A stretch of 63,234 nt of DNA, filler included, from Folioceros fuciformis (taxonomy: Eukaryota), in NCBI GenBank assembly GCA_049999805.1. It is 7 parts of 7 records of this genome, joined end to end, with 100 filler letters (N's around TTAATTAATTAA, not from the genome) between each part and the next. Parts side by side here need not be neighbours in the genome. Positions count along the whole stretch, not along the records: positions 41,976 to 54,904 come from JBNGIO010002921.1; 6 more parts are not named here. The stretch is one strand, 5' to 3'. Shown one piece after another: positions 8,364-61,346 of this stretch. The notes beneath the pieces are model-generated. The model had not been told where the DNA came from and did not search any database. It worked only from the letters and a program-made list of their open reading frames with translations. The position numbers were made by a program, and so were the translations under genes. The first letter of the stretch is position 1. Every line of letters begins with the position of its first letter.

Positions 8364-8463
8364 NNNNNNNNNNNNNNNNNNNNNNNNNNNNNNNNNNNNN
8401 NNNNNNNTTAATTAATTAANNNNNNNNNNNNNNNNNNNNNNNNNNNNNNNNNNNNNNNNNNNN
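8364..8463. other. Assembly gap linker (N-run, TTAATTAATTAA, N-run); also at 23145-23244, 28515-28614, 41876-41975, 54905-55004 and 61102-61221
   Basis: The same six-frame-stop 12-mer flanked by N runs occurs six times. Confidence 0.97.
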
Positions 8464-22629: not shown

Positions 22630-23244
22630 CATCTATCTTCAGGGGATGGTAAGGACTGGCAGGTTGTTGCAGACGCTCTCCACAAGGAGCGGATGGCTCG
22701 CAGGAATGCGGCACTGCAGGTAGAAACCAAGAGCAGCCCTGGGTGAGCTTCGTTTTGTTTAACTACAAGTCGAAAAACTACGGACATACTGTATGTAGGT
22801 AGTCAAAGGACCCCTCATAAACGCCTGCCTCTGGACGATAAAGGGCCCATGATAAGGCGGGCGTCCACGTTGCCGGACAGCCAGCCCTCTTTCGATGTAG
22901 GCAAGCGTCGGCAAGCGCAAGCCGAGTGGAGTGGAGAGGAGACGAGAGGAGCGGGGAGGAGAAAAAAGGCTTGTGGGATCGCACCTTAAAGTACCAAATT
23001 TCCTTCCCATTCCGTTACCCCCTTCTCCTCTGCTCTGCCACACCGTTATGCACTTTTCGTACCTTTGCTGCTCCTCCTCCGCGTTTTCCTCCTTTCTCAC
23101 TGGCATGTCAAAACATACATACCTACTATTAATAATAGCTTGTGNNNNNNNNNNNNNNNNNNNNNNNNNNNNNNNNNNNNNNNNNNNNTTAATTAATTAA
23201 NNNNNNNNNNNNNNNNNNNNNNNNNNNNNNNNNNNNNNNNNNNN

Positions 23245-41875: not shown

Positions 41876-42211
41876 NNNNNNNNNNNNNNNNNNNNNNNNN
41901 NNNNNNNNNNNNNNNNNNNTTAATTAATTAANNNNNNNNNNNNNNNNNNNNNNNNNNNNNNNNNNNNNNNNNNNNCCTCCACAGCCTTAGCCCCTCCTTG
42001 CGTGGACGTCTGCTCTCAAGGCCTCGGCCTCAGGCACCTCTACCTCCATCTTTCGCTTCCACCAGCACTAGCCAGAGGGGACCTCGACTCACCTCCCATG
42101 ACCCGTTCTAGGGTTCCTCGTCCATCTGTCACCATATCCTAAGGAACCGGAGCCCGTGTCCTACCTACCACACACCCTCCTAAACCTTATTCACTAACCC
42201 ACTAATCTAAC

Positions 42212-45200
42212 CTAATCTCCTAACCGTTTCTCTACAAAATTCAATAAGAGATTCCGAAAAAAAAGAAACCCTACCATTTTCCAGGGTCTGTTCCTCCTGT
42301 GGCCTCCACACTTGTCTCCCTTTGTAAGACTCACTACGTTAGACAACCAGTCTATGTCTAATGTGTGGGTATGCTTGGCCAGCCAGGGTTTACCAATAAT
42401 GATGTCATGACACAAGGACGACATTACAGTCAGCTTAAAGACTTTTGCCAAACCACCTGGAAAGGTGATTAGCGCATCAGTCCACTCTTCCTTGCTGGTT
42501 TCATGCTCGCCCAACGCTGTCACTACTATGGACACATGTCCAGAGGTACGGACCTGCTGGCCAACCTTTTCAGCAGTGGATCTAGATACATAGTGATGAT
42601 TGGCACCAGAGTCTAGCAGTGCTGTGGCTCGGGCACCTTCTAGGCCAACCTCTAGTTTGATGGGCACGTGGGTCAGGTAACCCTCTTGGAGATTTGACTT
42701 CTCTGAGATCGCTGCAGCTATGGCAGGGGTACTGACCTCGGTTGTGTTGATGGCATGCCCGCTCTTGGGAGGGATGGGGTTTGGTTGGCTCACTCTGGTG
42801 GTCTTCCCGGTTTCTCTCAAGCAGTTGATGAAGTCTTTGTGGAAAGGGCAGCTCTTTGAACCGTGGTCTTGTGCCATGCAAGTGAAACATTTCCTCTTCT
42901 CACTGTATTCCTTCTTCTCCTCCTCCATCAGTATTTTGAAAGTTGGTTTCTTGTTTGACGCGTTAGCTGTCTTGTTCCACTTAGGCTTGGAGGGACCTGC
43001 GAAAGAGAAGTGTTTGTATTTGTTCGTACCATAATTGATGGCTGCTCGCATCGCTTCGACCAAAGTTGCTGGGTTCGTTTGGTTCACATCCGCTCTCATT
43101 TCGAATTTCAGTCCGTCGATGAATTTCTCGATCTTTTGCTCCTCATCTAGCCTGGGCATGTCAAGTGTGAGTTGAAGAAACTTATCACAGTATTCTTGTA
43201 CACTACCTTGTTGGAATATCTTTTGGAATTGTTGATACAAGTCTCTGCGATGATTCACTGGTAGGAACTGTTCCAAGAAGAGCTGTTTGAGGACTGGCCA
43301 GGAGTACACAGGTGGTTCCATGCCGAGGTCCACCTGTTTTTCTCTCTAGCGCCACCAACGGTAGGCATATCCTTCAAGCGACATTACACAGAACTGGATC
43401 TTTTGCAAATCGTCTTTGTCGGAGGTTGTGAGGTACTTGTCGAGTTTGTCTAACAAGTTCATGCACACTTTGAGCATCTTTAGTACTTTCGTCGAACGTT
43501 GTGGTCTTGATCTTCCGATGTAGCTCCTTGTCGAGTTGGGGCTTCGGTTTGAACAGGTATTCTTCTCCCCCTTGCGCTTCTCCACTCGATCGACCTCGTT
43601 GGCGTTCCCAATGCTCATATCTCATCATTTGCAGATGCCTCACCATTGCTTTGATATCCTTGTTCTCTTCTTCGCCAGGTTGGAGTTCTACGATGAGTTT
43701 CTTCCTCAGCTCCCCATCCTCCAGGTGAGATTCCTTCTCAGCACAAGGTACGGCGGTGTACCTCCGTTCTTCGCCCCTTCCCGTGTCAGGACGGGTTGCT
43801 CCTAATAGTCTTCCATCCACAGGTGTGGAGAGGTGTGTCTCGTCCAGCGATGGCACCTCAGCGTCCGAGGGTGGGAACTGGTGAGCGCCTGGGGTGTTGG
43901 TTGCTCCAGCGTCTGGAGCACACCCTCCAGCTACCTCTCCAGTCGGGCTTGGCCCTCCCCCACCTGGACTTCGATCCGATCGACAGCCCGCTCTACCTTA
44001 GCCAGCTGTTGGTCTTGTCTAGACAAGGATGAGCGCAATTCATCGCAGGTATGTTCGACGCTGGCTGTCCTTTCCTCCATTCTTCGCAAGGTCTCTGCCT
44101 GATTTGCTTCACTCCTGGTTGGCTCACCGACTGTGTTCAATGCAGGAGAGTGGCGTGATTCTGCTAGAGTGCTGTGTTTCCTTGGGCGTCCGCGTCGCCG
44201 GCTTACCAGCTCTGAGGCGTAGTCAGCGAGAATTCTTGGAGCGTCCGGTTCGGTTGTCCATGCTGCCTTTCCTAGCGAGATTTCCAGGACTCCTCTTGGT
44301 TTCTGCCTTCCTCATGGTTGGTCCGTTCTCTGTTGCTGGTGATGGTTGCTGGGAAGCTATTGCTACCACCTCTAGGTGCTCCCGAACTCGGCCTCTGGAT
44401 CCTGGCTGCCGGCCTTGATCCTAGATCTAAGGGTGGCTAGCTCAGTGGCTTTGATACCAAAGATGTTACGGGATAGCTCTGGATTCCAGCTTTAGGAAAA
44501 TGGACGTTCTCTTCATGTTCAGTTTTGCTACAAATACATGTTTAGCGAGCAGTGCCAAGAAGGCTGTACCTGCCCGCCTAACTACCCTACTTCTTGGGAT
44601 TCTGCTGGTATAACAGCTTTTAGTTATCCAGATATTCTATATACTGGCATTTTATCTATCAATTAGTATCTATTTAATTAGTGTCTACTTAAACAATATC
44701 TACTTAATTAGTATCTACTTGATTGTTTCATAGCTGGGTATACGATAAAAACATGAGTGTTTCGTAGAGTTCCTGCTACCTCATCGTGGTAGCTTCGGCT
44801 CCTGGGCGGACGACTTGAGTGGCCTGCTCATCGTCCTTGTTTCACAAGGTAGCTATTGACAAGTTTCAGAAGTGAGAGAAGTTGCTATGTCACAACGGCA
44901 TGACCGCGCAGTGTACAAGGAAGTTGCTATGTCACCAGGACATGACCGCGCAGTGTACGAGGGGTTTACGTGCACCACCCAATCTTGCCTCCCCATTTCC
45001 TGACAGGGTGGTGGTGACCACCCTGGTATAAACCCGGCCTTTATGTAGGACACTCCAGGAAGGTTCCCGGCCTTCTGCAGGATATCCTCGAGGGAGGTCC
45101 CCTGCCTTCTCCTTGATATACTCTATGGGTGTCCCCTGCCCACTGCTGGATATACTCCCATCTCGGGCCGTCCGCTAGCATGACATACACACACGAAAAT

Positions 45201-46402: not shown

Positions 46403-46592
46403 ATTGTAGTGTCGGGCAGGATCGGTGCTGCACTGGACTAGTTCGATTTGGCATGCAAAGGCTTTGTCTACATTGGGATAATTGACAAGGTGTAGCCTTT
46501 GGATTGCGGCTGGAGCTGATTGGTTTGCCAGGTGCACGAATGTGTTGGTCCCTTCTATTGAGATTCGATATCTTGAGTACGGAAGGCCGAAG

Positions 46593-48236
46593 ATGGCAGA
46601 CGGTGGGACACAGTCTGGGGTAGACGCAATTTCGAATCAGTTATTGAAGGAGAGTGAAGGAAATGTGTCTGAGACAAGCGACAGTGAGGAGAGTGTCATT
46701 GAGGCGAGCGATAGCAAGGAAAATGTGATGGAGACGAGCAAGGGTGAGCAGGATGCGAGTGGGGTTCAGAAATCGCCTAGGCCGCACAAAGGGTTCGTGT
46801 GGGGTTTCTGGTCGGTAGCCTTTTTTGTTTGTTTCCTGTCCTTTGTTTTCTCACCACAGCATCTACAAGATAAACTGTTAGATCTTCAGTTTTGGGTCCA
46901 CAGCTTGCGCACAGTCAGTGTGGGTGTCAGCCGCGTAGTTCGTTACTGGCACTTGGTTGAGAACTGGGTGTTTGTGAGACTTCCGGAGCCTGTGTCTAGC
47001 GAGGCATTCAAGTTCCCGCTTTTGTGGATGGCTCCTTTTTTTTCTGCCGGTGGTTACAGCTCAGAAGCCATATCCTATGCTGAAGCCCTGGTGGAGAGCA
47101 AGCTTGTTCCTCACTTCCAGATTATGCAGCATGGGGATCTCTACAACCATGTCTTCCTCAAGGGATTGCCATCGAAGACTAAGGAGATTCTAGTGACCTT
47201 AATGGCTAGTGAAGTTGATGTGGGTCGAAGTGTAGTCATCTGCCATAGTGAACCTGGAGCTTGGTATCCTCCTTTGTTCCAGACAATCCCTTGTCCTCCT
47301 GGAGGATATGAGCAACCACTGTATGTGATTGGAAGAACCATGTTCGAGACGGACATGGTGAATGCGAATCATGTGGACCGCTGTAACTTGATGGATGAAG
47401 TCTGGGTTCCAACAGAATTTCACATGGGAACTTTTGCCAGGAGTGGAGTTAATGCATCCAAGATTGTTAAGGTGCCGCAAATCGTTGATGTGCATTTCTT
47501 TGATCCCAGCCGTGTGGAAGCCAGCAGTATGCCTGCAGGGAGGTGCCTATTCGGCGACTGTAGGGGAGCTTTGGAACCTCAACGCTTTGTGTTTCTGAGT
47601 ATCTTCAAGTGGGAGATCAGGAAAGGGTGGGATATTCTTATTAAGGCTTATATGCGGGAGTTCTCCGTGGAGGACAATGTAGTGCTGTATCTTTTGACAA
47701 ACGCTTTTCATTCAGATGACGATTTTGGCAGCAAGATTCAGGAGTTCGTGCAGGGTATGGATGAGCCCAAACTACCTGAAAGCTGGCCAGCATTGTACCT
47801 GCTGGACGAGCATGTTCCCCAGACCAAGCTGCCAGGTCTGTATAAGTTGGCAGATGCTTTTGTGCTGCCATCTAGGGGTGAAGGATGGGGTCGACCTCAT
47901 GTGGAAGCGATGGCCATGGGCCTTCCTGTTATTGCAACCAACTGGTCTGGCATGACTGAATACATGACAGAGGACAACAGTTACCCTATACCTGTAGAAA
48001 GGCTTGTTCAGGTGAAGCAAGGGCCGTTCAAAGGCCACCAGTGGGCAGAGCCGTCGTCAGAGCGTCTGCAACAGTTGATGAGGCACGCCATGAGCAACCA
48101 ACTCGAGGCGAAAGCAAAGGGGTCGGAGGCTCGGCAAAATATGGTTTCGAAGTACTCTCCTGAGGTTGTCGGGCACCAGGTCGTCTCTCATTTTCTGCGT
48201 ATCCAGAAGCTGTTAGAGAGTAGGCAAACCAGTTAA
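46593..48236 (+). CDS. GT4-family (GT-B) glycosyltransferase with N-terminal TM anchor, intronless
   Basis: LWMAPFFSAGGYSSEA, CHSEPGAW, GRTMFETD, FKWEIRKGWD, FVLPSRGEGWGRPHVEAMAMGLPVIAT (EX7E motif); first in-frame ATG at 46593. Confidence 0.9.
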   Translation: MADGGTQSGVDAISNQLLKESEGNVSETSDSEESVIEASDSKENVMETSKGEQDASGVQKSPRPHKGFVWGFWSVAFFVCFLSFVFSPQHLQDKLLDLQFWVHSLRTVSVGVSRVVRYWHLVENWVFVRLPEPVSSEAFKFPLLWMAPFFSAGGYSSEAISYAEALVESKLVPHFQIMQHGDLYNHVFLKGLPSKTKEILVTLMASEVDVGRSVVICHSEPGAWYPPLFQTIPCPPGGYEQPLYVIGRTMFETDMVNANHVDRCNLMDEVWVPTEFHMGTFARSGVNASKIVKVPQIVDVHFFDPSRVEASSMPAGRCLFGDCRGALEPQRFVFLSIFKWEIRKGWDILIKAYMREFSVEDNVVLYLLTNAFHSDDDFGSKIQEFVQGMDEPKLPESWPALYLLDEHVPQTKLPGLYKLADAFVLPSRGEGWGRPHVEAMAMGLPVIATNWSGMTEYMTEDNSYPIPVERLVQVKQGPFKGHQWAEPSSERLQQLMRHAMSNQLEAKAKGSEARQNMVSKYSPEVVGHQVVSHFLRIQKLLESRQTS

Positions 48237-48845: not shown

Positions 48846-49615
48846 TTACTTGCCGAAAAGACGAGTGAAAAAGTTGCCTGACTTCTGGCTTTCCAGGCAT
48901 GCTACATGCGCGTATCTTCCTAGCTTGTCCACGGTTCGAGGTGCACCAGAGGTGTTCTTCCTGCACACCCGACAGTTCTTGTCCACCCAGCCTTCATCCA
49001 CATACTCTCCATCCACTGTCACAAACCAACGTTACACTGAGTCAGGAACTCCTCATTTTTGGCCAATTCGCTGACGTTCTGTTCAAGCTCACGCGCATAG
49101 TAATCACGTAATTCACGATCTACTAACCTTCCACGAAATCCTTGAAGAAGTCCCTGTATGTTCCTCCAATCTTCCTCCTCAAGGCACCGTACTGCAAAGA
49201 AGCTGGCTGGATGTGAACACGCAGCTGAACCACACACGTCGATCACGAAAGCTCCGAGCTGCAATGGCATCCGTACCTGCTCGCGAGACATCTTTTCGCC
49301 GGATTTCGTTGCAGCTCGTGCGTCTTCCAACAACTCCGCATCTGATTCCGATCTCACAGAGGAGAAATCAATTGCATCAGTGAAGGCTGAAAACAGGGAT
49401 TGCTTGCTCTTCTTCGGCTCCTCCTCCTTGCCAGGCTTGGCCTTTCCAGCATACACTGTTAACCCGACTGATGATGTGCCTACACGGCAAGCTCCTTGCG
49501 CATTGAGAACTTCGGCTGGGGAGAGTGTCCCGAAAGCTGATGCGGCGGAGGATGACAATGAGGAACGCCCCGACCCGATCAAAGCTCCGCACGAGCCACA
49601 GAGTGCTACAGCCAT
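48846..49615 (-). CDS. Probable plastid-targeted protein with C-terminal CxxC...HxxC motif, exons 49615-49277, 49191-49128, 49015-48846
   Basis: S/A-rich transit peptide ending VYA; spliced core MSREQ|YGALRRKIGGTYRDFFKDFVE|VDGEYVDEGWVDKNCRVCRK...YAHVACLE...FFTRLFGK*. Confidence 0.85.
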
Positions 49616-50264
49616 GGCACCGCCTGTCCGGAAATCTGAGCCACCGTCGTCAACTTCAATTGCTTGGCCGGCAGAAAGGAATTACACCGACGTCTCAAAC
49701 GACTCAGACTCACAAGCTCGGCCTGAAACGGCAGGATGAGAGGCTGGTGTTCATCTTCGCGTGGCTTTCTCGCAGCCCCCAGCCATTTCGTGGCCGGGGA
49801 GATTCCAGATTCAAGCCCGGGCCGGGCGGGCCGAGATAATGGAGACAGGAATTACTTCGACACCCGCCACACTCGCGGCATTTCTGCTGTTCCACGTCTC
49901 ATAGTCAGGGCAGCAATGTTTGCTTCAATCCGTGATCAAGCCAGCAGACGTTAAACCTTCAATCAGCTTGCCATTTTCATTTTCCCACTTTTGTCTACAG
50001 CTGCCAACTCAAATTCTGGCATTGGCACTTTTCATTTGGAGCTGAGGACCTGCTTGTTGTCCTTTGTTGGACCAGATTGTCTTGAACCTTGCTCTGGACT
50101 CGCGGCGTGCACAAGCAAGTGGTGGACTTTCATGACTAGATTGGAGTCTCCCTGAGAACAATGTGCAAACTAGGTTTAGGAAATGTGTCTAGGAATGTGA
50201 GTGGACTAGGAGGAAGCTCACAGACACAGGATTGTTTGATGCAGAAGCCACGGATGAGGCACAG

Positions 50265-53200
50265 ATGACGACCGTGTTCCCGCAAGTCACCGCGCGGCTA
50301 AGCGTGGGCCCTGATTCAGCTCCTTCGGAACATCTACTTGACAGAATCATCAGTTTCCTTGGGCAGGTCGTCCATTTCCCCGCTGGCATTGTGCGTGCAG
50401 AATTTCTCGACTTTCAGAAACCTGGAGAGCATTTCTTAGTCAGGATTGTCGTCTTGCAGTCTGAGTTTCCCCAGGAGCTGCACCACGCAACTTTGCAGGG
50501 AGTTTTCAAGTGCCTTAAAAGCTGGTCAAGGACTCTCTTCTTCAACAAACTGTTGGAATCAGGCATTGCGCGTGTTCTGACCAAAGCATACGACGATCTG
50601 TTGCTGAGGGACTACAGCAGAATCGAAGTGCTAAATTCCGTGTTGGAGCTTCTGTATGCCATTAAAGATTTCAGCGAGGTTGCAGCAGGTTCGGACCCGG
50701 TTGATTCCACGGCGGCATGAATGGACGGCGAGTTGGTATCGTGATGCGAAACCGCACGTTCACGTGAGCTCTTCTTTGCAGGGAAGGAAGAATTTGGCAA
50801 GCACTTTGTACCTCGACTCCTCGCCCTCGCTCCTGCTAAATCAGGCTCTGTGAAGCTGCAGCGGGCTGCCATGGGCACACTGTGTGCCCTGATCACCAAG
50901 TGCTCTCCCAATCAGCAATCTTTCCTGCGTTGCTCCGCTGACTGGTTGGTTTTTTATTCCATCACTGGACGCAGCTGCAATGACTAGGGTGGAGCTCTGG
51001 CTCTGGAGCACTTACAGCATCGAATTCTTTACTCATCTACATGAATGTTCACTGAAGTCGGTTGGCAGTTCCTCACAAATTCCAATCTCTCGAAACTGGA
51101 ACTCGTGCAGTCGCAAGTTGTTCCGAGTTGTCCTTCCCAGATGTGGGGATTTCTGTACACAGGCCACCATCTCGGAGATTTTGCTTAGACTTCTCAGAAG
51201 GGCGCCTCACCTCGTTGATCTCCTCGAAGGTGGAGTTTCTACAGCAGCCATGTCCCAGATGCTTCAGTTGAAGAACCCAAAACTCTCAGCTGAGATAAGA
51301 CACTTCGTCTGCGCGATGAATCAGTCCCTGGGGCCTTTGAGAAGGTACGCATGTTTCCACTTTGAATGCTTTGTACCCTCACATTAATTGTTTCTCCAAC
51401 TCCTGATTTGCTAGATCTTTATAGGGTTTACTCGTTCCTGGCACACAAGATTATGGTGAATGGAAACGATCTGTCTCCAGCGGAGGACAGATGGGTTGAC
51501 TTCGGAGACGACCACTTCAGCTTCTATGCTTTGACTATGACCTCTCAGAGAGATGTATTTCTGATGAATGCTAGACACCCCTTCACTCCCTGCCTTCGCT
51601 GCTGGAATTTTGTCAGAACTAGATTTTGTGACGCAGCATTTCTGTAATCGTGTTCTCAGAACGACAATTCTGCTCAGTTGATTGACGTACAGTATCGCGA
51701 AGTTATCGAAATCAATCGTAAGCCCCCTCTTCCCATAGTTGGTTGGGTTATGTGACATGGACGTTCAGCAATGGTTGTTTGTGCACTAGGCCCTGACAAG
51801 ATTCTTAGCATGCTTTAGTCTAAGATGGCTAGTCGAACTGCAACAAGAAACTCCTGCACTTGCAGGACCCTCTGAAACACATCTGGAAATTGTTGCTGCC
51901 TCAAAGATCAATAACCTTGGATTACAGCAGGTGCAGAATCCTGTGTTGAATGTGATAACCTGCTGCTGGTGTCGTCGTTGCTCCAAATTCCTTCCTGGCA
52001 CGGGTGATGCTCTACTTCATGCTTTTGTGCAGGCGCAAGGGTGTTCAGAGTCGTCGCTGATCACGTTCGACCTTAGTGCTGAAGGTAACGCCGACAGTAC
52101 ATTAATCTAAGAAAGATTTTCGTCGTCAGAAGGAAATTGAACCCCTGTGCACGAACGGTAAGAAAATGCTGATCCCTGGCTGCCCGTTTCATCTGTTGGA
52201 CATTGTTGGTACCAGATATCTTTACAGTTTCAGCTTCCCTCATCCCGTTGATAACACAACATAAGAGGAGACTGCAGCAGGTACGAAGTCGTTTTGCACA
52301 GCCGCATTTCAATACGTTGCTTATGTTGACTGGTTAGGACAACGGTGGGAAGCAGGAAGCCCATCCCAGCCAATTATCACATCTGGCATCTGGCTCTTCT
52401 CAAGCTGGTAGGAAAGCTTCATACGGAATAATAATTCCGTTGCCCAAAATGGTGGCTGTGGAAGAGTTTGAAGAGCCCAGACCACTGAAATCTCGCAGTG
52501 TGGGGTCAAGAATCCTTTCGGTACTCCTGGCATCACGCAGTCATGGAAAAACCGGCGCCAGAGAGGTTCATGCCGAACATTCGAGGGCATCCAAATTCCC
52601 CTGTCCCTCCACTCCTGAAAGAGTAGGCGGGCAACTTGCCCTCAGAACCGTCGAATCTGCAGTGGGCGGAGAGAAGAGTGCAGGCGTTCAATTGTCTAAA
52701 ACATCCATGCAGTTATGCACGGCAAGAAGTGCAGGAAATGAAGGGGGACTCTTACGGGAAGACAGGCCCGAGGTTTCCGGCAGGATAGCATCGGCTGTTC
52801 GTACCGTCGAGCCACCGTGTCCAGCAGCGTCAGCAGGTGTGGAGAGAGCTGAAGGTGCATGTCCAAGCGAACCGGCAAGGATGCAGGAGGATAAGGCTCA
52901 GAGTCCAAGCGACCCGGCAAGGATGCAAGAAAGTAAGGTTCAGAGTTCAGACCACAGTCCCGAGCCAATTGAAACTGGTGACCAGCTTGCAGGCTGGTCG
53001 AAACCCAGAAATTCATCACCAGACCTGGAGCCTGCAAATGCTGCCGCCGATATATCATCCTCCAGTAGTCCAGCTGGACCAGGAACAAGCGAGATTCCTA
53101 GGTGTGGTGCAGCGTCTCCTAGTAAGACCACGAAGACCGAAGCTAATGATGAGGACTCGGAGTACGTACCCACACCTAAGAAGAGTTTGCGGCAGCCTCG

Positions 53201-54867
53201 AGGAGGAGGAGATCCTCCCGGGAGGAAGAAGACTAAATGCAAAGTTACCAGAGTGCATCGAAAACCTGGTTTGATACACGCGGACAAAAGGTGTGCCAGG
53301 TCCCGAAAAGGGAAGTCCGAACGACCAGCAGGAGCTTCCAGTGACGAAGCCGGAAGGATGGGCTCTCATATTTCCAGGAAACGAAGGCGGAGCACGGTGC
53401 AAAACCTTGGAGTAAAACGCACCCACTTCTCAACGATCTCGAGATCTCATGTTGGCGTTGGCCAAGTACAAGAAACGGAACAAGCTGAGGTGTTGGGGAA
53501 TGTTTCAGCGACTATCCCCGCAGCCCTGGACGTGACTGCACAGGTTGCTGCATGCAAAAAGCAAAAAGTGCCAGGCACAGAAGGGGTGGGTCACAATGCA
53601 GCCGCTTTCTTACAACGACAGCCAGAGGATCCTTGTACGGCTACGTCAGCTTTCACGACAGTGGCAGACGGGTCTGCCACTGCGAGGAACTTTGGTCGTC
53701 AGAGGCGACGGGCAGGTTGGCCTGACAAGCTAAACCACGCTCCGAACGATGGTACTTGCCTGACAATGTCTCAGGATGGTCTCCCGCATGATACATACCG
53801 CCATGACGACACTCTTTCGTCAAAACCGAACTCCGTATCCGCTCCAGCGCAAACAGTGAGGGCATTGATCGTGTTTTGCAGTCTAGCAACTTACTAGGAC
53901 TGAGGTTCAATGTAGACGTCGTTTGGCACCTTTACCTACAGGCAGCATGATGGTCCATCTGTTGAAGACCACAAGGATTCCGAGACCCCCGAATCAAGTC
54001 CAGTTGATTATTGTCCCGCTGATTGTCAGGAGGCTAATTTTGCATGTTCAATGGAGTATGGCCAAGTACCACGCCCCGCAGCAGGTATCTTTTGCTTCGT
54101 GAACCTGGCTATTTTGTTAGAGAAACTGCTTTATGGAGTGTTCACGAACTGATTGCTCCCCCGCCTGAATTGACAACCAGATTGTATTCGTATCTTTCCG
54201 AGAATCAGGCGAAGATGGTCCACCAAGACTGCTAAGGAGCAAGAGATACCAGCACCTCATTTGGGTAAAAGGGGCAAACTAAAAGGTGGTTGTACTTAAA
54301 GACCGTTTGCTGAAAACCTGAGGCATCCACCTAGCGTTCGCAGCGGTGCCGTGGCTATGGCTTGCTCACATGAGATTATTCTGATATTAAAGCAGAAAAA
54401 ACGAGCATTGAGGTCGAGTATCAGAGCGACGTCGAGGTGGATCATTCTATTGGGTACGTACAAATCACGTTCTTCTGTAGTTGACTGGTGTCAGGAAGCA
54501 TCTCCATCAGCTGTTGAGATCGAAATGGGTTGCAGGTTGTAAATCAATGTCTCATGGTCTACATACAGGGAAATCGAAAGAGTTGCTAATATGGTAAACA
54601 GACTGAAGCAAAAAAGTAGCCTGCTCACCCAACAGAAAATTGCACATATTCTGTGCCAAGTAACTACAAAAGCGCATCTCCAAATCCAACCTCTGGCAAG
54701 TGCCTTTGAGAAAGACAAGTAGGTGATCCCTCCGATAGCATCAATTGTTTACTTCAAGCGTCGGTGCAGGGTTCCTCAGTTGCGAAGTTCACACACCTAT
54801 GCACGCAGTGAGGAGTTGTTGAAGGAAAGTAAGCGTAGATTTGGGCAATTGGAAGATCAGCTTCGAG
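50265..54867 (+). CDS. ASY3: Meiotic chromosome-axis core protein, ASY3/SYCP2 family (ARM-PH N-terminus, closure motif, disordered middle, coiled coil); 3' end lost in the gap, 5' start uncertain
   Basis: In-phase exon chain: 50265-50688, 50782-50944, 51111-51344, 51425-51554, 51660-51717, 51809-51930, 52033-52084, 52216-52280, 52338-53855, 53946-54084, 54181-54264, 54396-54453, 54569-54718, 54809-54867. Motifs GKEEFGKHFVPRLLAL, GDFCTQATISEILLRL, MNQSLGPLRRVYSF, WVDFGDDHFSFY (SYCP2-like); SSQAGRKASYGI and KIAHILCQVTTKAHLQIQ (ASY3-like). Confidence 0.78.
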
Positions 54868-55004
54868 GTAACCCAACGTCAGAAGCTACGAAGATGTTAA
54901 TTATNNNNNNNNNNNNNNNNNNNNNNNNNNNNNNNNNNNNNNNNNNNNTTAATTAATTAANNNNNNNNNNNNNNNNNNNNNNNNNNNNNNNNNNNNNNNN
55001 NNNN

Positions 55005-58000
55005 TATACAGTGATGGAAAAATAGGCAGCTTGCCACCTCTACCTCTGTGTGAAATCCATGTGTTGTTAAAACATCATCAAGCAGCTTTCAAGAACAAAT
55101 CTCCTCACAAAGCTTCCGATGTTCTTGAGCTTGTCCACACTGATATATGTGGGCCATTGTCTCAGCCTTCAATTGGTGGTGGCAGATATTTCCTCACATT
55201 CACTAATGACAAAACCAGGTTTGTCATGGCCTACATCCTACAGGCCAAGAGTGAGTGTTTCTCTTTGTTCAAAGACTATATGAAATATACAGAGAGATGG
55301 ACTGGCAAACAACTAAAAACCCTCCGATCTGACAATGGTGGAGAATTCACATCTAATGAATTCCAAGCCTATTGTGTTGCTGAGGGAATAGGTAGACAAC
55401 TTACAATTGTTTACACACCACAGCAAAATGGTGTTGCTGAGCGCTTGAATCAGACTTTGCAGGAAATGGTTTCCACTATGTTACATCAGGCCTCTCTGCC
55501 ACTTCCGTATTGGGTTGAGGCCCTTATGACAGCTGTGTACTTGCGTAACAGGCTGCCTACCACTGCCGTTGCAGGGCAAACCCCCTATGAGGCCTTCTTT
55601 GGCAGAAAACCAGCTATCTTGCATCTTTGAACCTTTGGTTGCCTTGCTTATGCTTTTGTTCCTAAAGCCAAGCCCACCAAGTTAGCTGCTAAAGCCAAGA
55701 AATATCTCATGATAGGCTATACTGAAGGTATTAAAGCATATAAATTATATGATGTACCTCACAATCAGGTGGCTTATGCCCGCAGTGTGACTTTTGATGA
55801 AACACATTTCTGGTAGACAGTGGGAGCACTTCCCACCTCCCAAGAGGATTTTGACTTGTCTACTCTTTTGGACATCACAGTTTTTCCTGACCTTCCACAT
55901 GAGGAGATTGCTCCTGCAGGGGGGGAAGATAATCAGCAAAATGCTGGACAGGGTGTAGAGCAGGTAGATGAATTAGCAGTACCTGATCTTGCTGCTGACT
56001 TACAGGATCCACCTCCTCATGTTGTTGTTGATCCTGAACCCCTTGTTCCTAATGACGATGATGGTCCTGATCCAGATCCAGATCTTGACCCTGATGACTG
56101 ACATGCCTAAACCTGTGCGTCGTTATCCTTCAAGAGAAAGACGGGCACCAGACTATTATCAGTCTCAAGATTTCAGGATACCCTCTGTACAAGCTATTGC
56201 TCTTGATCCCGTAGAGCCTCAGTCTTATGAAGAAGCCTTAAGTAGCCCTGATGCTGCAGAATGGAAAAAGGCTATTCAGTCTGAATATGATTCATTGATA
56301 AAAAATAGAACATGGGAATTAGCAAACTTACCCCCTGGACGCAAGCCTGTATCTTGCAAGTGGGTTTTTAAACTGAAGGTTAAAGCAGATGGTACCTTTG
56401 ATCGCTATAAAGCTCGGCTAGTTGCCCGAGGCTTCTCTCAAGTGCCAAGTCTAGACTATTTAGAAACATATGCTCCTATTATGAAGTTGGCTACCTTTCG
56501 CACTATATGTGCACTTGCAGCACACTATGATTATGAGTTAGATATGTTTGATGTAAAGACACCTTTCTTACATGGAAAACTGGACACTGAAATATACATG
56601 CAACAACCACCTGGATATGAGGTGAAAGGAAAAGAAGACTATGTCTTACGCCTGATTAAAACCCTGTATGGGTTGAAACAATCTGCCCTTGAGTGGAATG
56701 CTGTTCTTGATGAAGAATTGTGATCCCTAGGTTTTGTTAAATGTGTCTTATATGGAAGCTTATACATTTATAGATCTAAAGCTGTAGTATGTTACTTGGC
56801 TGTATATGTAGATGATCTCATATTGGCCTGTAACAGCCCTACCTTCATCAAAGACATAAACAAGGTGTTATCAACCAAATTTGAGATGACACACCTAGGT
56901 GCTCTACAAAGTTGCCTTGGTATATTGATTCAGCGTGACAGGCTAAAAAGGACTATTTCTTTAACACAGCCACAATACCTGTTAAATAGTGCTGAACAGC
57001 TTGGTTTGAAGAATGCAAAATCATCAGCTACTCCTTTACCTTGTGGACTGAAAATGAGCAAATCAATGTGTCTTGAAACACAAACACAAAAGGATCAAAT
57101 GAGATCAGTACCCTATAGACAAGCTGTAGGAAAAATTATCTATGCTGCAAATACTACAAGACCAGAAGTAGCCTATGCTACAATTGTGCTTTCACAGTAT
57201 CTGGAAAATCCAGGCCAAACACATTGGACAAGTGTTAAAAGAGTTTTCAGATACCTAAAAGGCACTCATAACATTGGCATAAGGTATAGAAATATACCTG
57301 GAGTGCCCTTACAGCTGGATGTCTTCACAAACTCAGATTATGCTGGGGACATAGATACACGAAAATCAGTTTCCGGCTATGTAGTAATGATAGCAGGAGG
57401 ACCAATCTGCTGGTCCAGTAAAAAACAGCCTACTGTGGCTTTATCAAGTATAGAGGCTGAGTATCGTGTACTTACGGCTACTGCAAAGGAAATTGCTTGG
57501 TGTAAGTTGATGTTTAAGGAACTTGGATTCTCACTTCCCACCTACACCACAATAAAACCAAACAATCAAGGATCAATGAGTCTTGCTCACAATCCAGTAT
57601 TTCACTCCAGAACCAAACATGTGGAAGTCGAAGACCACTTCATACGTGACTTGATCAAATCTAGACAGATTGATCTGGAGTATGTGCCAACAGCTGAAAA
57701 CCCAGCAGACATTTTAACTAAGTCCCTAGGAAGGGAACTTCACGAAAAGCACATGAAAGTCCTTGGCATGGGGAGCCATGAAGGCAGCTCCACTGCCATG
57801 TCTAAGACCTAGCCAACCAAGCTAGTCACAACCCCAGTCATTGCTGTCGTCATTGCCTGAATTTCCTGGTGGAGATTGGAATGATCTCCTGCTCTTAGAG
57901 CTCATTGAATCATCATATTTATTCCAGGAATCACAATCCACAGACTTTGAAGAGAAATTCTCATTCTCATCGCGAGGAGAAAACCTTTTCCTCCTCTCTT

Positions 58001-61101: not shown

Positions 61102-61346
61102 GGACGCGGGGCTACGGCCTGNNNNNNNNNNNNNNNNNNNNNNNNNNNNNNNNNNNNNNNNNNNNTTAATTAATTAANNNNNNNNNNNNNNNNNNNNNNN
61201 NNNNNNNNNNNNNNNNNNNNNTATAATGGTCATGGTCATGTACTTCGTATGTCTATCAATTAGGGTTTCAAATTCATTTAGGGCATTCATTTTTTAATTT
61301 ATTTTTTCAAATACTTTGAAGTACTTTTTTTAAACCTTTCATATAA

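What the first reader, a model, noticed from the sequence alone, without database searches (positions are those of the whole stretch)
50265..54867. Plant axis protein joining an SYCP2-type ARM-PH domain to an ASY3-type closure motif and coiled coil
Seen: a 14-exon in-phase model that the ORF track shows only as fragments. The N-terminal ~400 aa match, in order, blocks I recall from vertebrate SYCP2: ELLYAIKDFSEVAAGKEEFGKHFVPRLLAL vs DLLLVIHDVSDEGKKQVVESFVPRICSL; GDFCTQATISEILLRL vs GDYDLQVGIVEALCRM; HFVCAMNQSLGPLRRVYSF vs IFLNLVNGMLGDKRRVFTF; WVDFGDDHFSFY vs WIDFNLGSQTLSFY. Directly after comes SSQAGRKASYGI, resembling the HORMA-binding closure motif at the start of Arabidopsis ASY3 (SSQSRKISIGV), and the C-terminus resembles the ASY3 coiled coil. 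Established: SYCP2, Red1 and Rec10 have an N-terminal ARM-PH module, whereas angiosperm ASY3/PAIR3 lack it. Inference: this lineage keeps the ancestral full-length axis core, and angiosperm ASY3 is an N-terminally truncated derivative. Comparison sequences are from memory.
Basis: partly seen in the sequence, partly recalled or inferred. Interest (0 to 1): 0.85.

Follow-up and report, generated by a model that had tools for sequence, protein, structure and literature searches.

The report
Full-length plant meiotic axis protein gene
This is a gene for the meiotic chromosome-axis core protein (ASY3/SYCP2 family) in its long form, which keeps the folded N-terminal domain that seed plants have lost; this form is already described for non-seed plants, so the find is sound but ordinary.

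Summary
A GT-AG, in-phase, multi-exon gene lies on the + strand from 50265 to 54867. It runs off the end of its contig at 54904, so the C-terminus is missing.

The spliced product aligns in one piece with two full-length liverwort proteins, Marchantia polymorpha Mp2g06990 and Calypogeia fissa CAM6083050.1. The match is 37% identity, 248-249 bits. Both carry a C-terminal Pfam ASY3-like coiled coil.

A profile of these proteins plus the window exons finds one PDB sequence out of 177,635. It is the mouse SYCP2 ARM-PH domain, 5IWZ, at E 3.9e-6.

Straight after that domain sits RKASYGIIIPLPK. Marchantia has RKSSMGILIPLPK, and the N-terminus of Arabidopsis ASY3 has SSQSRKISIGV.

Corrections:
- RNA contigs put one junction at 53834/53946.
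- Homology favours 15 exons rather than 14.

Fold predictions showed only a generic ARM fold. No transcript covers the 5' half.

Tromer et al. 2021 state that Spermatophyta ASY3 lost the ARM and PH domains. This is a new member of a known kind and of low interest.

The parts
50265..50366 (+). Exon 1, with the ATG at 50265 (aa 1-34 of the 15-exon model)
   Evidence: The donor at 50367 and acceptor at 50459 remove an in-frame 93-nt stretch. Removing it extends the alignment to the liverwort N-termini and raises the score from 243-244 to 248-249 bits. There is no RNA cover here, so this rests on homology only.
50460..50688 (+). Exon 2, ARM-like repeats (aa 35-110)
   Evidence: In the database hits the matched part of the query starts at residue 62-69. 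Residue 66 of the unspliced reading is position 50460. Identity to the Marchantia protein is 38-39%.
50782..50944 (+). Exon 3, ARM-like repeats (aa 111-164)
   Evidence: GT-AG and in phase. 52% identity to the Marchantia protein.
51111..51344 (+). Exon 4, last ARM-like repeats, with the GDFCTQATISEILLRL block (aa 165-242)
   Evidence: The acceptor at 51111 gives an alignment to the liverwort proteins with no indel. Acceptors at 51069 or 51018 add 14 or 31 unmatched residues and score lower. The block aligns with GDYELQVGIVEALCRM of 5IWZ.
51425..52280 (+). Exons 5-9 (51425-51554, 51660-51717, 51866-51930, 52033-52084, 52216-52280): PH-like half of the N-terminal domain (aa 243-366)
   Evidence: All are GT-AG and in phase. 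They are colinear with the liverwort proteins. The WVDFGDDHFSFY block aligns with WIDFNLGSHTLSFYI of 5IWZ. The PH fold itself was not modelled with confidence.
52338..53834 (+). Exon 10: closure-type motif followed by a long linker rich in S, P, G, K and R (aa 367-865)
   Evidence: RNA contigs cover 52866-53834 and join 53834 to 53946. Hydrophobic residues are 10-26% and S/P/G 18-42% per 50-aa block from about aa 450 to 950 of the 1074-aa model scored there. No Pfam family matches.
52395..52448 (+). Closure-type motif SSQAGRKASYGIIIPLPK (aa 386-403), directly after the PH-like domain
   Evidence: It aligns with RKSSMGILIPLPK of the Marchantia protein. It resembles SSQSRKISIGV at residues 14-24 of Arabidopsis ASY3 as printed in PMC9957857. 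The pattern RK.S.G[VI] occurs in 264 of 100,000 shuffles, and the longer pattern in 1 of 100,000. Binding was not tested.
53946..54264 (+). Exons 11-12 (53946-54084, 54181-54264)
   Evidence: One RNA contig shows the joints 53834>53946 and 54084>54181.
54393..54867 (+). Exons 13-15 (54393-54453, 54569-54718, 54809-54867): start of the C-terminal coiled coil. The gene is cut here by the contig end at 54904.
   Evidence: The RNA joint 54718>54809 and a spliced loose end after 54867 are. The tail scores 16.6 bits against a profile of the liverwort C-termini, against 9.1 for the best of 1000 shuffles. The matched liverwort segment lies inside their Pfam ASY3-like hit.

Best explanation
The locus encodes the orthologue of the meiotic axis core protein ASY3 (SYCP2/Red1 family) in its full-length, non-seed-plant form.

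**Domain order**
- An N-terminal armadillo-like plus PH-like domain of about 365 aa, in exons 1-9.
- Directly after it, a short HORMA-binding closure-type motif.
- A disordered basic linker of about 500 aa.
- A C-terminal coiled coil, of which only the first 80 or so residues are on this contig.

**Inferred mechanism, by analogy with Red1, SYCP2 and Arabidopsis ASY3**
- The closure motif is captured by the HORMA domain of the ASY1 orthologue.
- The coiled coil forms tetramers with an ASY4-type partner, and these assemble into axis filaments.
- The ARM-PH module adds a contact with chromatin or another axis protein. Seed-plant ASY3 no longer has this module.

**Shown versus inferred**
- Shown here: the gene structure, the homology of each part and their order.
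- Inferred: all binding and assembly steps and the meiotic role.
For: **Gene structure**
- The multi-exon GT-AG model is open.
- Three junctions and the continuation past 54867 are seen in RNA contigs.

**Homology to liverwort proteins**
- Alignment to Marchantia Mp2g06990 (P0007, 1129 aa) and Calypogeia fissa CAM6083050.1 (P0003, 1211 aa): model aa 28-403 and 17-357, 37-38% identity, 248-249 bits. The Marchantia alignment crosses the exon 9/10 boundary into the closure motif.
- These proteins pass Pfam ASY3-like PF20435 at 42.9-47.4 bits against a cut-off of 25.7. This held for 3 of the 3 full-length proteins scanned.

**Link to SYCP2**
- The profile of liverwort proteins plus window exons finds 5iwz_A SYCP2 as the only hit among 177,635 PDB sequences: E 3.9e-6, chain residues 91-366.
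- The liverwort-only profile also finds it as the only hit, at E 0.0028.
- Atlas features of P0003 residues 1-420 point to SYCP2 (0.88, 192 of 256 features shared), DUF8079/PH_30 and Red1 clusters.

**Closure motif and tail**
- The closure-type motif is conserved with Marchantia and resembles the Arabidopsis ASY3 N-terminus.
- The tail matches the liverwort coiled-coil profile at 16.6 bits, against 9.1 or less in 1000 shuffles.

**Literature**
- Tromer 2021, West 2019 and the 2026 preprint 10.64898/2026.01.19.700424. Only passages were seen.
Against: **Pfam**
- No SYCP2_ARLD or SYCP2_SLD match for any of the 10 window exon translations, nor for P0003 (limit E <= 1), nor for P0006 and P0007 (limit E <= 10).
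- No ASY3-like Pfam match for any window exon.

**Single-sequence PDB searches**
- P0007, P0003 and three window pieces do not find 5IWZ.

**Structure**
- The two structure predictions of liverwort N-termini are weak, with mean pLDDT 48 and 57. The PH part has pLDDT around 30-40.
- Fold searches give generic armadillo proteins first. 5IWZ is rank 24 by Foldseek, sits at Z 14.1 against a top Z of 15.8 by VIA, and is not among the rows shown for the second model.

**Transcripts**
- RNA contigs do not cover 49681-52757 at all, so the 5' exons and their link to exon 10 rest on homology.

**Tail**
- The tail match is modest, and about half of the coiled coil is missing.
Confidence: 0.88

Rival explanations
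1. There are two adjacent genes. One is an ARM-PH protein gene (50265-52280). The other is a separate, angiosperm-like short ASY3 gene that starts near 52338 with the closure motif at its N-terminus.
For: No RNA contig covers the 5' exons or the 52280/52338 junction. In angiosperm ASY3 the closure motif lies at the very N-terminus.
Against: There is no in-frame ATG between the acceptor at 52338 and the motif (translation). The 57-nt GT-AG intron keeps the phase. Marchantia and Calypogeia carry both parts in one annotated protein, and the alignment to Marchantia runs across the junction into the motif.
Confidence: 0.04
2. The N-terminal domain is a generic armadillo-repeat module unrelated to SYCP2, joined in bryophyte-grade plants to an ASY3-type protein.
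For: Fold searches rank designed armadillo proteins, importin-alpha and APC above or level with 5IWZ. Pfam SYCP2 models do not match.
Against: Profile searches hit only SYCP2 among 177,635 PDB sequences and no other armadillo protein. The alignment extends through the PH half to chain residue 366. Atlas neighbours are SYCP2, Red1 and DUF8079/PH_30 clusters. The position of the closure motif right after the domain matches SYCP2 and Red1.
Confidence: 0.05
3. The copy is a decaying or non-functional duplicate.
For: The gene is incomplete in the window. One RNA contig carries 5 differences and an indel and retains intron sequence at 54668-54797. Retrotransposon fragments lie nearby.
Against: There is no stop or frameshift in 1029 codons over 15 exons. 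Spliced RNA contigs are present. The incompleteness is explained by the contig end.
Confidence: 0.03

Closest known systems
Marchantia polymorpha Mp2g06990 / MARPO_0021s0152 (P0007, 1129 aa; source name 'Meiosis-specific protein ASY3-like coiled-coil domain-containing protein') and Calypogeia fissa CAM6083050.1 (P0003, 1211 aa)
   Same: The order of parts is the same: ARM-like, PH-like, closure-type motif, long linker, ASY3-like coiled coil. Identity over the N-terminal domain is 37-38%. The motif RK.S.GI.IPLPK is shared with Marchantia.
   Different: These are only distant orthologues. The linker is not alignable. The window copy lacks its C-terminal end because the contig stops.
Mouse SYCP2 N-terminal domain (PDB 5IWZ; ARM-like plus Spt16M-like/PH)
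   Same: It is the only PDB sequence hit by the family profile, covering both subdomains. In SYCP2 the closure motif also follows the domain directly, at residues 395-414.
   Different: The similarity is detectable only by profile. Pfam SYCP2_ARLD and SYCP2_SLD do not match. A structural superposition could not be tested with confidence.
Arabidopsis thaliana ASY3 (Q0WR66) / rice PAIR3
   Same: It has a closure motif of the SSQ-RK-S-G type. The orthologues of the window gene have a coiled coil that passes the Pfam ASY3-like model.
   Different: Seed-plant ASY3 starts at the closure motif and has no ARM-PH domain.
Saccharomyces cerevisiae Red1 / Schizosaccharomyces pombe Rec10, and kinetoplastid KKT17/KKT18
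   Same: The architecture is the same: ARM-PH, then (in Red1) a closure motif at residues 346-362, a disordered region and a coiled coil. Red1 and DUF8079/PH_30 clusters appear among the Atlas neighbours.
   Different: No direct sequence match was obtained here. Red1 forms homotetramers, and KKT17/18 act at kinetochores.

Membership tests
SYCP2/Red1/ASY3 axis core proteins | N-terminal ARM-like plus PH (Spt16M-like) domain | tested here: met
   A profile of liverwort orthologues plus 4 window exons finds only 5iwz_A among 177,635 PDB sequences, at E 3.9e-6 over chain residues 91-366. Without the window rows E is 0.0028. This is sequence-profile evidence only.
SYCP2/Red1/ASY3 axis core proteins | The predicted fold superposes on the SYCP2 N-terminal domain over both subdomains | tested here: inconclusive
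   Models of the Marchantia and Calypogeia N-termini have mean pLDDT 48 and 57. The ARM part is at 64-90 and the PH part at about 30-40. 5IWZ ties with generic armadillo proteins. The window protein itself could not be folded, because it is a spliced product.
Pfam SYCP2_ARLD (PF18581) / SYCP2_SLD (PF18584) | Score above the gathering threshold | tested here: not met
   There was no match for 10 of 10 window exon translations at E <= 10, for P0003 at E <= 1, or for P0006 and P0007 at E <= 10. The window could only be scanned exon by exon. The accession numbers are those printed.
SYCP2/Red1/ASY3 axis core proteins | HORMA-binding closure motif directly after the N-terminal domain | tested here: met
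   What was met is the sequence and position test. The motif lies at 52395-52448, 20 residues after the last PH-domain exon. It is shared with Marchantia and resembles the Arabidopsis ASY3 N-terminus. Binding to a HORMA domain is not testable with these tools.
Pfam ASY3-like (PF20435) | C-terminal coiled coil matching the model | tested here: inconclusive
   Orthologues P0003, P0006 and P0007 pass at 46.3, 42.9 and 47.4 bits against a cut-off of 25.7. The window exons alone give no hit. The visible tail matches the liverwort coiled-coil profile at 16.6 bits against 9.1 or less in shuffles. The rest of the coiled coil lies off the contig.
SYCP2/Red1/ASY3 axis core proteins | Tetramer and filament formation with an ASY4/SYCP3-type partner; localisation to the meiotic axis | not testable with these tools
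   No partner gene is in the window and no genome is held.

The most novel reading that the evidence does not exclude
The closure motif of this protein and of the Marchantia protein sits at the PH-domain boundary. It is the same SSQ-RK-S-G motif that forms the extreme N-terminus of Arabidopsis ASY3. On this reading, seed-plant ASY3 arose by a clean loss of the ARM-PH exons up to the closure motif.

The lineage of the window was not determined. If it is a vascular plant, it would narrow the date of that loss. If it were a seed plant, it would contradict the published statement of loss in Spermatophyta.

The main text of Tromer et al. 2021 does not mention closure motifs: 0 occurrences. I could not see its supplements.
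Probability: 0.3. Interest if true: 0.35.

Novelty: new member of a known kind. Interest (0 to 1): 0.2.

Why it matters
It confirms, in one more genome, that plants outside the seed plants keep the full SYCP2/Red1-type axis core protein. It also gives a corrected gene model for a locus that ORF calling shows only as fragments.

A plant ASY3 that keeps the ARM-PH module is a useful contrast to Arabidopsis ASY3. It could help work out what that module binds, a question West et al. 2019 left open. The general point is already published (Tromer et al. 2021) and the Marchantia orthologue is already annotated, so the gain is small.

Tried and rejected
**Searches that found nothing useful**
- Pfam on single exons, and on the motif region, gave nothing relevant.
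- phmmer of single window pieces against the PDB: exon 4 gave 4 chance hits, the best being Pumilio at E 0.16. Exon 1/2 and the start of exon 10 gave none.
- Word-index protein searches with exon 1/2 and exon 4 found nothing.

**RNA**
- No RNA holder is listed on record. The one run (X1, guessed to be RNA) has spliced contigs only from 52866 onwards.
- There is no cover of 49681-52757 or of 54387-54567, so nothing can be said about the 5' junctions.
- The exon that follows 54867 is not in any other contig of the window.

**Alignments and structure**
- Alignment A1 misplaced two window pieces. These two pieces and P0002 and P0005 were left out of A2; P0004 was not in A1 or A2.
- Alignment A3 misplaced the four short exons and was discarded.
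- The two AlphaFold jobs and three fold searches gave only a generic armadillo fold.

**Weak or uninformative checks**
- A heptad count on the tail was uninformative: 0.45 against 0.36.
- A cohesin-interaction-type hydrophobic pattern at 52500-52526 is expected by chance about once in ten by my rough estimate. It is absent from both liverwort proteins, so it is kept only as a lead.

**Literature**
- The search was swamped by unrelated papers.
- The preprint read gave no motif sequence.
Full report
**What the window is.** The 63,234-base window is not one stretch of genome. It is seven contigs joined by spacers of 44 N, TTAATTAATTAA and 44 N. The finding lies on the contig spanning 41976-54904. 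The same contig carries three other features:
- a gypsy-type gag-protease fragment (42212-43345, minus strand);
- a single-exon group-1 glycosyltransferase ORF (46482-48236, plus strand);
- an unassigned minus-strand ORF at 49019-49681.

The next contig starts with a copia-type integrase.

**The gene model.**
- Fourteen exons from the ATG at 50265 to a donor after 54867 all have GT-AG borders. Introns are 57-148 nt. The model has no stop over 1091 aa, or 1108 aa with an alternative acceptor.
- The last donor lies 37 bases before the contig end, so 54867 is not the end of the gene.

**RNA evidence.** One public run (coded X1, kept as Logan contigs, 21% of the sampled words) holds part of the stretch. 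When laid on 49500-54904:
- Its contigs cover only 52866 onwards, at a depth of about 1-6.
- Three GT..AG joints are seen: 53834>53946, 54084>54181 (as printed, 54081>54178 with the cut 3 places further right) and 54718>54809.
- The first joint moves the end of the large exon and the start of the next. The frame is kept. The other two agree with the model.
- One contig continues after 54867 into sequence found nowhere else in the window, so the transcript goes on into an exon on another contig.
- Nothing covers the 5' half.

**Relatives.**
- Pfam on single exon translations gave nothing relevant: 0 of 10 matched SYCP2 or ASY3 families.
- Two word-index searches found nothing.
- A full HMMER scan of 1.84 billion representatives with the first 141 codons found 5 proteins at E <= 0.001, with 39-47% identity.
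- One of these is a 1211-aa protein of the liverwort Calypogeia fissa, CAM6083050.1. A second Calypogeia copy is 87% identical.
- Another is a 287-aa Marchantia fragment. Its cluster also holds the 1129-aa Mp2g06990 / MARPO_0021s0152, which a source names 'Meiosis-specific protein ASY3-like coiled-coil domain-containing protein'.
- All three full-length liverwort proteins pass Pfam ASY3-like (PF20435) at their C-termini, with 42.9-47.4 bits against a cut-off of 25.7.

**Refining the model by homology.** The spliced window product aligns in one piece with these proteins. The alignment suggested two corrections.
- First, the homology starts at residue 66 of the unspliced reading, which is position 50460 (residues 62-70 across the hits). 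The 93 nt before it (50367-50459) have GT-AG borders and an in-frame length.
- Second, an acceptor at 51111 removes a 14- or 31-residue insertion that the liverwort proteins lack.
- With both changes the model has 15 exons and 1029 visible residues.
- It then aligns over aa 28-403 with Marchantia and aa 17-357 with Calypogeia, at 37-38% identity and 248-249 bits. The 14-exon versions give 229-236 bits.
- The E-values of these blastp runs refer to a database of eight proteins, so the bit scores are the measure to use.

**Is the N-terminal domain of the SYCP2 type?** The sequence-profile evidence says yes.
- A profile was built from the Marchantia N-terminus, both Calypogeia proteins, one fragment and four window exons. 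It found exactly one of 177,635 distinct PDB sequences at E <= 10. That sequence is 5iwz_A, the mouse SYCP2 N-terminal domain (E 3.9e-6, 28.3 bits, chain residues 91-366). The match spans the later armadillo repeats and the PH-like half.
- A profile without any window rows again found only 5iwz_A, at E 0.0028. The hit therefore does not depend on the window, and the window rows add signal.
- Atlas features of the Calypogeia N-terminus point to three kinds of cluster: SYCP2 (SYCP2_SLD in 96% and SYCP2_ARLD in 71% of members; score 0.88, 192 of 256 features), DUF8079/PH_30 in Euglenozoa, and Red1.
- PF26290 is a precomputed hit on both Calypogeia proteins.

The evidence against, or not supporting, is as follows.
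- Single sequences do not reach 5IWZ.
- Pfam's own SYCP2 models do not match.
- The structural test failed to discriminate. AlphaFold models of the Marchantia and Calypogeia N-termini, each with an 8-row alignment, had mean pLDDT 48 and 57.
- The armadillo part was confident (64-90). The PH part was not (about 30-40), although the second model shows a run of strands followed by a helix.
- Foldseek and VIA-align put designed armadillo proteins, importin-alpha and APC first. 5IWZ was rank 24 (E 5.7e-3) by Foldseek and Z 14.1 by VIA against a top Z of 15.8. It was not among the rows shown for the second model.

**Closure motif.**
- Twenty residues after the last PH exon, at 52395-52448, lies SSQAGRKASYGIIIPLPK. 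Marchantia has RKSSMGILIPLPK at the same place.
- The Arabidopsis ASY3 sequence printed in PMC9957857 begins with a segment containing SSQSRKISIGV at residues 14-24. This lies inside the region 8-35 that West et al. 2019 give as the closure motif.
- The pattern RK.S.G[VI] occurs once in the window protein, once in Marchantia and not in Calypogeia. It occurs in 264 of 100,000 shuffles of the window protein. The longer pattern with SSQ occurs in 1 of 100,000. These patterns were chosen after seeing the match.
- In SYCP2 (residues 395-414) and Red1 (residues 346-362) the closure motif also follows the folded domain directly.
- Binding was not tested.

**C-terminus.**
- The last 170 visible residues score 16.6 bits against a profile of the last 260 residues of the three liverwort proteins. 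That ranks first of 1001 targets, with the best of 1000 shuffles at 9.1.
- The matched part corresponds to the beginning of their ASY3-like coiled coil. By the alignment with the liverwort profile, about 95 residues of coiled coil are missing.
- No window exon reaches Pfam ASY3-like by itself.

**One gene or two?** The points in favour of one gene are:
- the phase-preserving 57-nt intron at 52281-52337;
- the absence of an ATG between 52338 and the motif;
- the fact that liverwort proteins hold both halves, with the Marchantia alignment running across the junction.

No transcript was seen across it. I put the two-gene reading at about 4%.

**How it most likely works.** By analogy with Red1, SYCP2 and Arabidopsis ASY3:
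- The closure motif is bound by the HORMA domain of the ASY1 orthologue.
- The coiled coil forms tetramers with an ASY4-type partner, and these assemble into axis filaments.
- The ARM-PH module provides a further contact. Its partner is unknown even in yeast and mammals.

All of this is inferred. Only the architecture is shown.

**Novelty.** Tromer et al. [quoted passage not shown] They name Marchantia polymorpha among the species in the legend of their ARM-PH homology-path figure. West 2019 and the 2026 preprint note that plant (Arabidopsis) ASY3 lacks the domain.

Searches for ASY3 with Marchantia and with Physcomitr* listed 9 and 7 papers, of which 8 and 7 were shown. Of those lists I opened only Tromer 2021 and PMC9957857 (passages); the rest I saw as search listings only, and none of them appeared to treat the bryophyte protein further.

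The one small addition here is the explicit placement of the closure motif at the domain boundary. The main text of Tromer et al. does not mention closure motifs, and its supplements were not available to me.

The lineage of the window was not determined. The nearest relatives found are liverwort proteins at 37-38% identity and unnamed fragments at up to 47%.

Noticed in passing
window 8364-8463, 23145-23244, 28515-28614, 41876-41975, 54905-55004, 61122-61221: Six spacers of 44 N, TTAATTAATTAA and 44 N show that the window is seven separate contigs laid end to end. Features must not be read across these points.
   Followed up: yes
window 42212-43345 (-) and 55007-55630 (+): Retrotransposon fragments: a Ty3/gypsy-type gag plus aspartyl protease ORF on the gene's contig, and a copia-type integrase core at the start of the next contig.
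   Followed up: partly
window 46482-48236 (+): An uninterrupted 584-codon ORF with a group-1 glycosyltransferase domain (Glycos_transf_1, E 7.5e-14), upstream of the axis gene.
   Followed up: partly
window 49019-49681 (-): A 220-codon ORF on the opposite strand with no Pfam family. A 3782-base contig of run X1 at depth 41 ends on 49500-49668. It therefore looks like a well-expressed neighbour transcribed divergently from the axis gene.
   Followed up: no
window 33458-33529 and 37384-37454 (-): Two tRNA-Gly(CCC) genes 3.9 kb apart on another contig. The first scores only 30.9 bits in Rfam.
   Followed up: no
window 52500-52526 (+): VGSRILSVL has hydrophobic residues at i, i+4, i+7 and i+8. That spacing matches the four residues of the REC8-binding motif of Arabidopsis ASY3 (L196, L200, I203, L204). 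It lies about 20 residues after the closure motif. The pattern is loose, with roughly a 1 in 10 chance by my estimate, and is absent from both liverwort proteins.
   Followed up: partly
window 54668-54797 (+): One X1 contig follows exon 14 into the intron with 5 differences and one inserted base, then diverges. It could be an unspliced allele or a second copy.
   Followed up: no
P0003 and P0006 (Calypogeia fissa): Calypogeia has two copies 87% identical on different contigs. P0006 carries an extra segment of about 30 residues inside the PH-like region that looks like a retained intron in the annotation.
   Followed up: no
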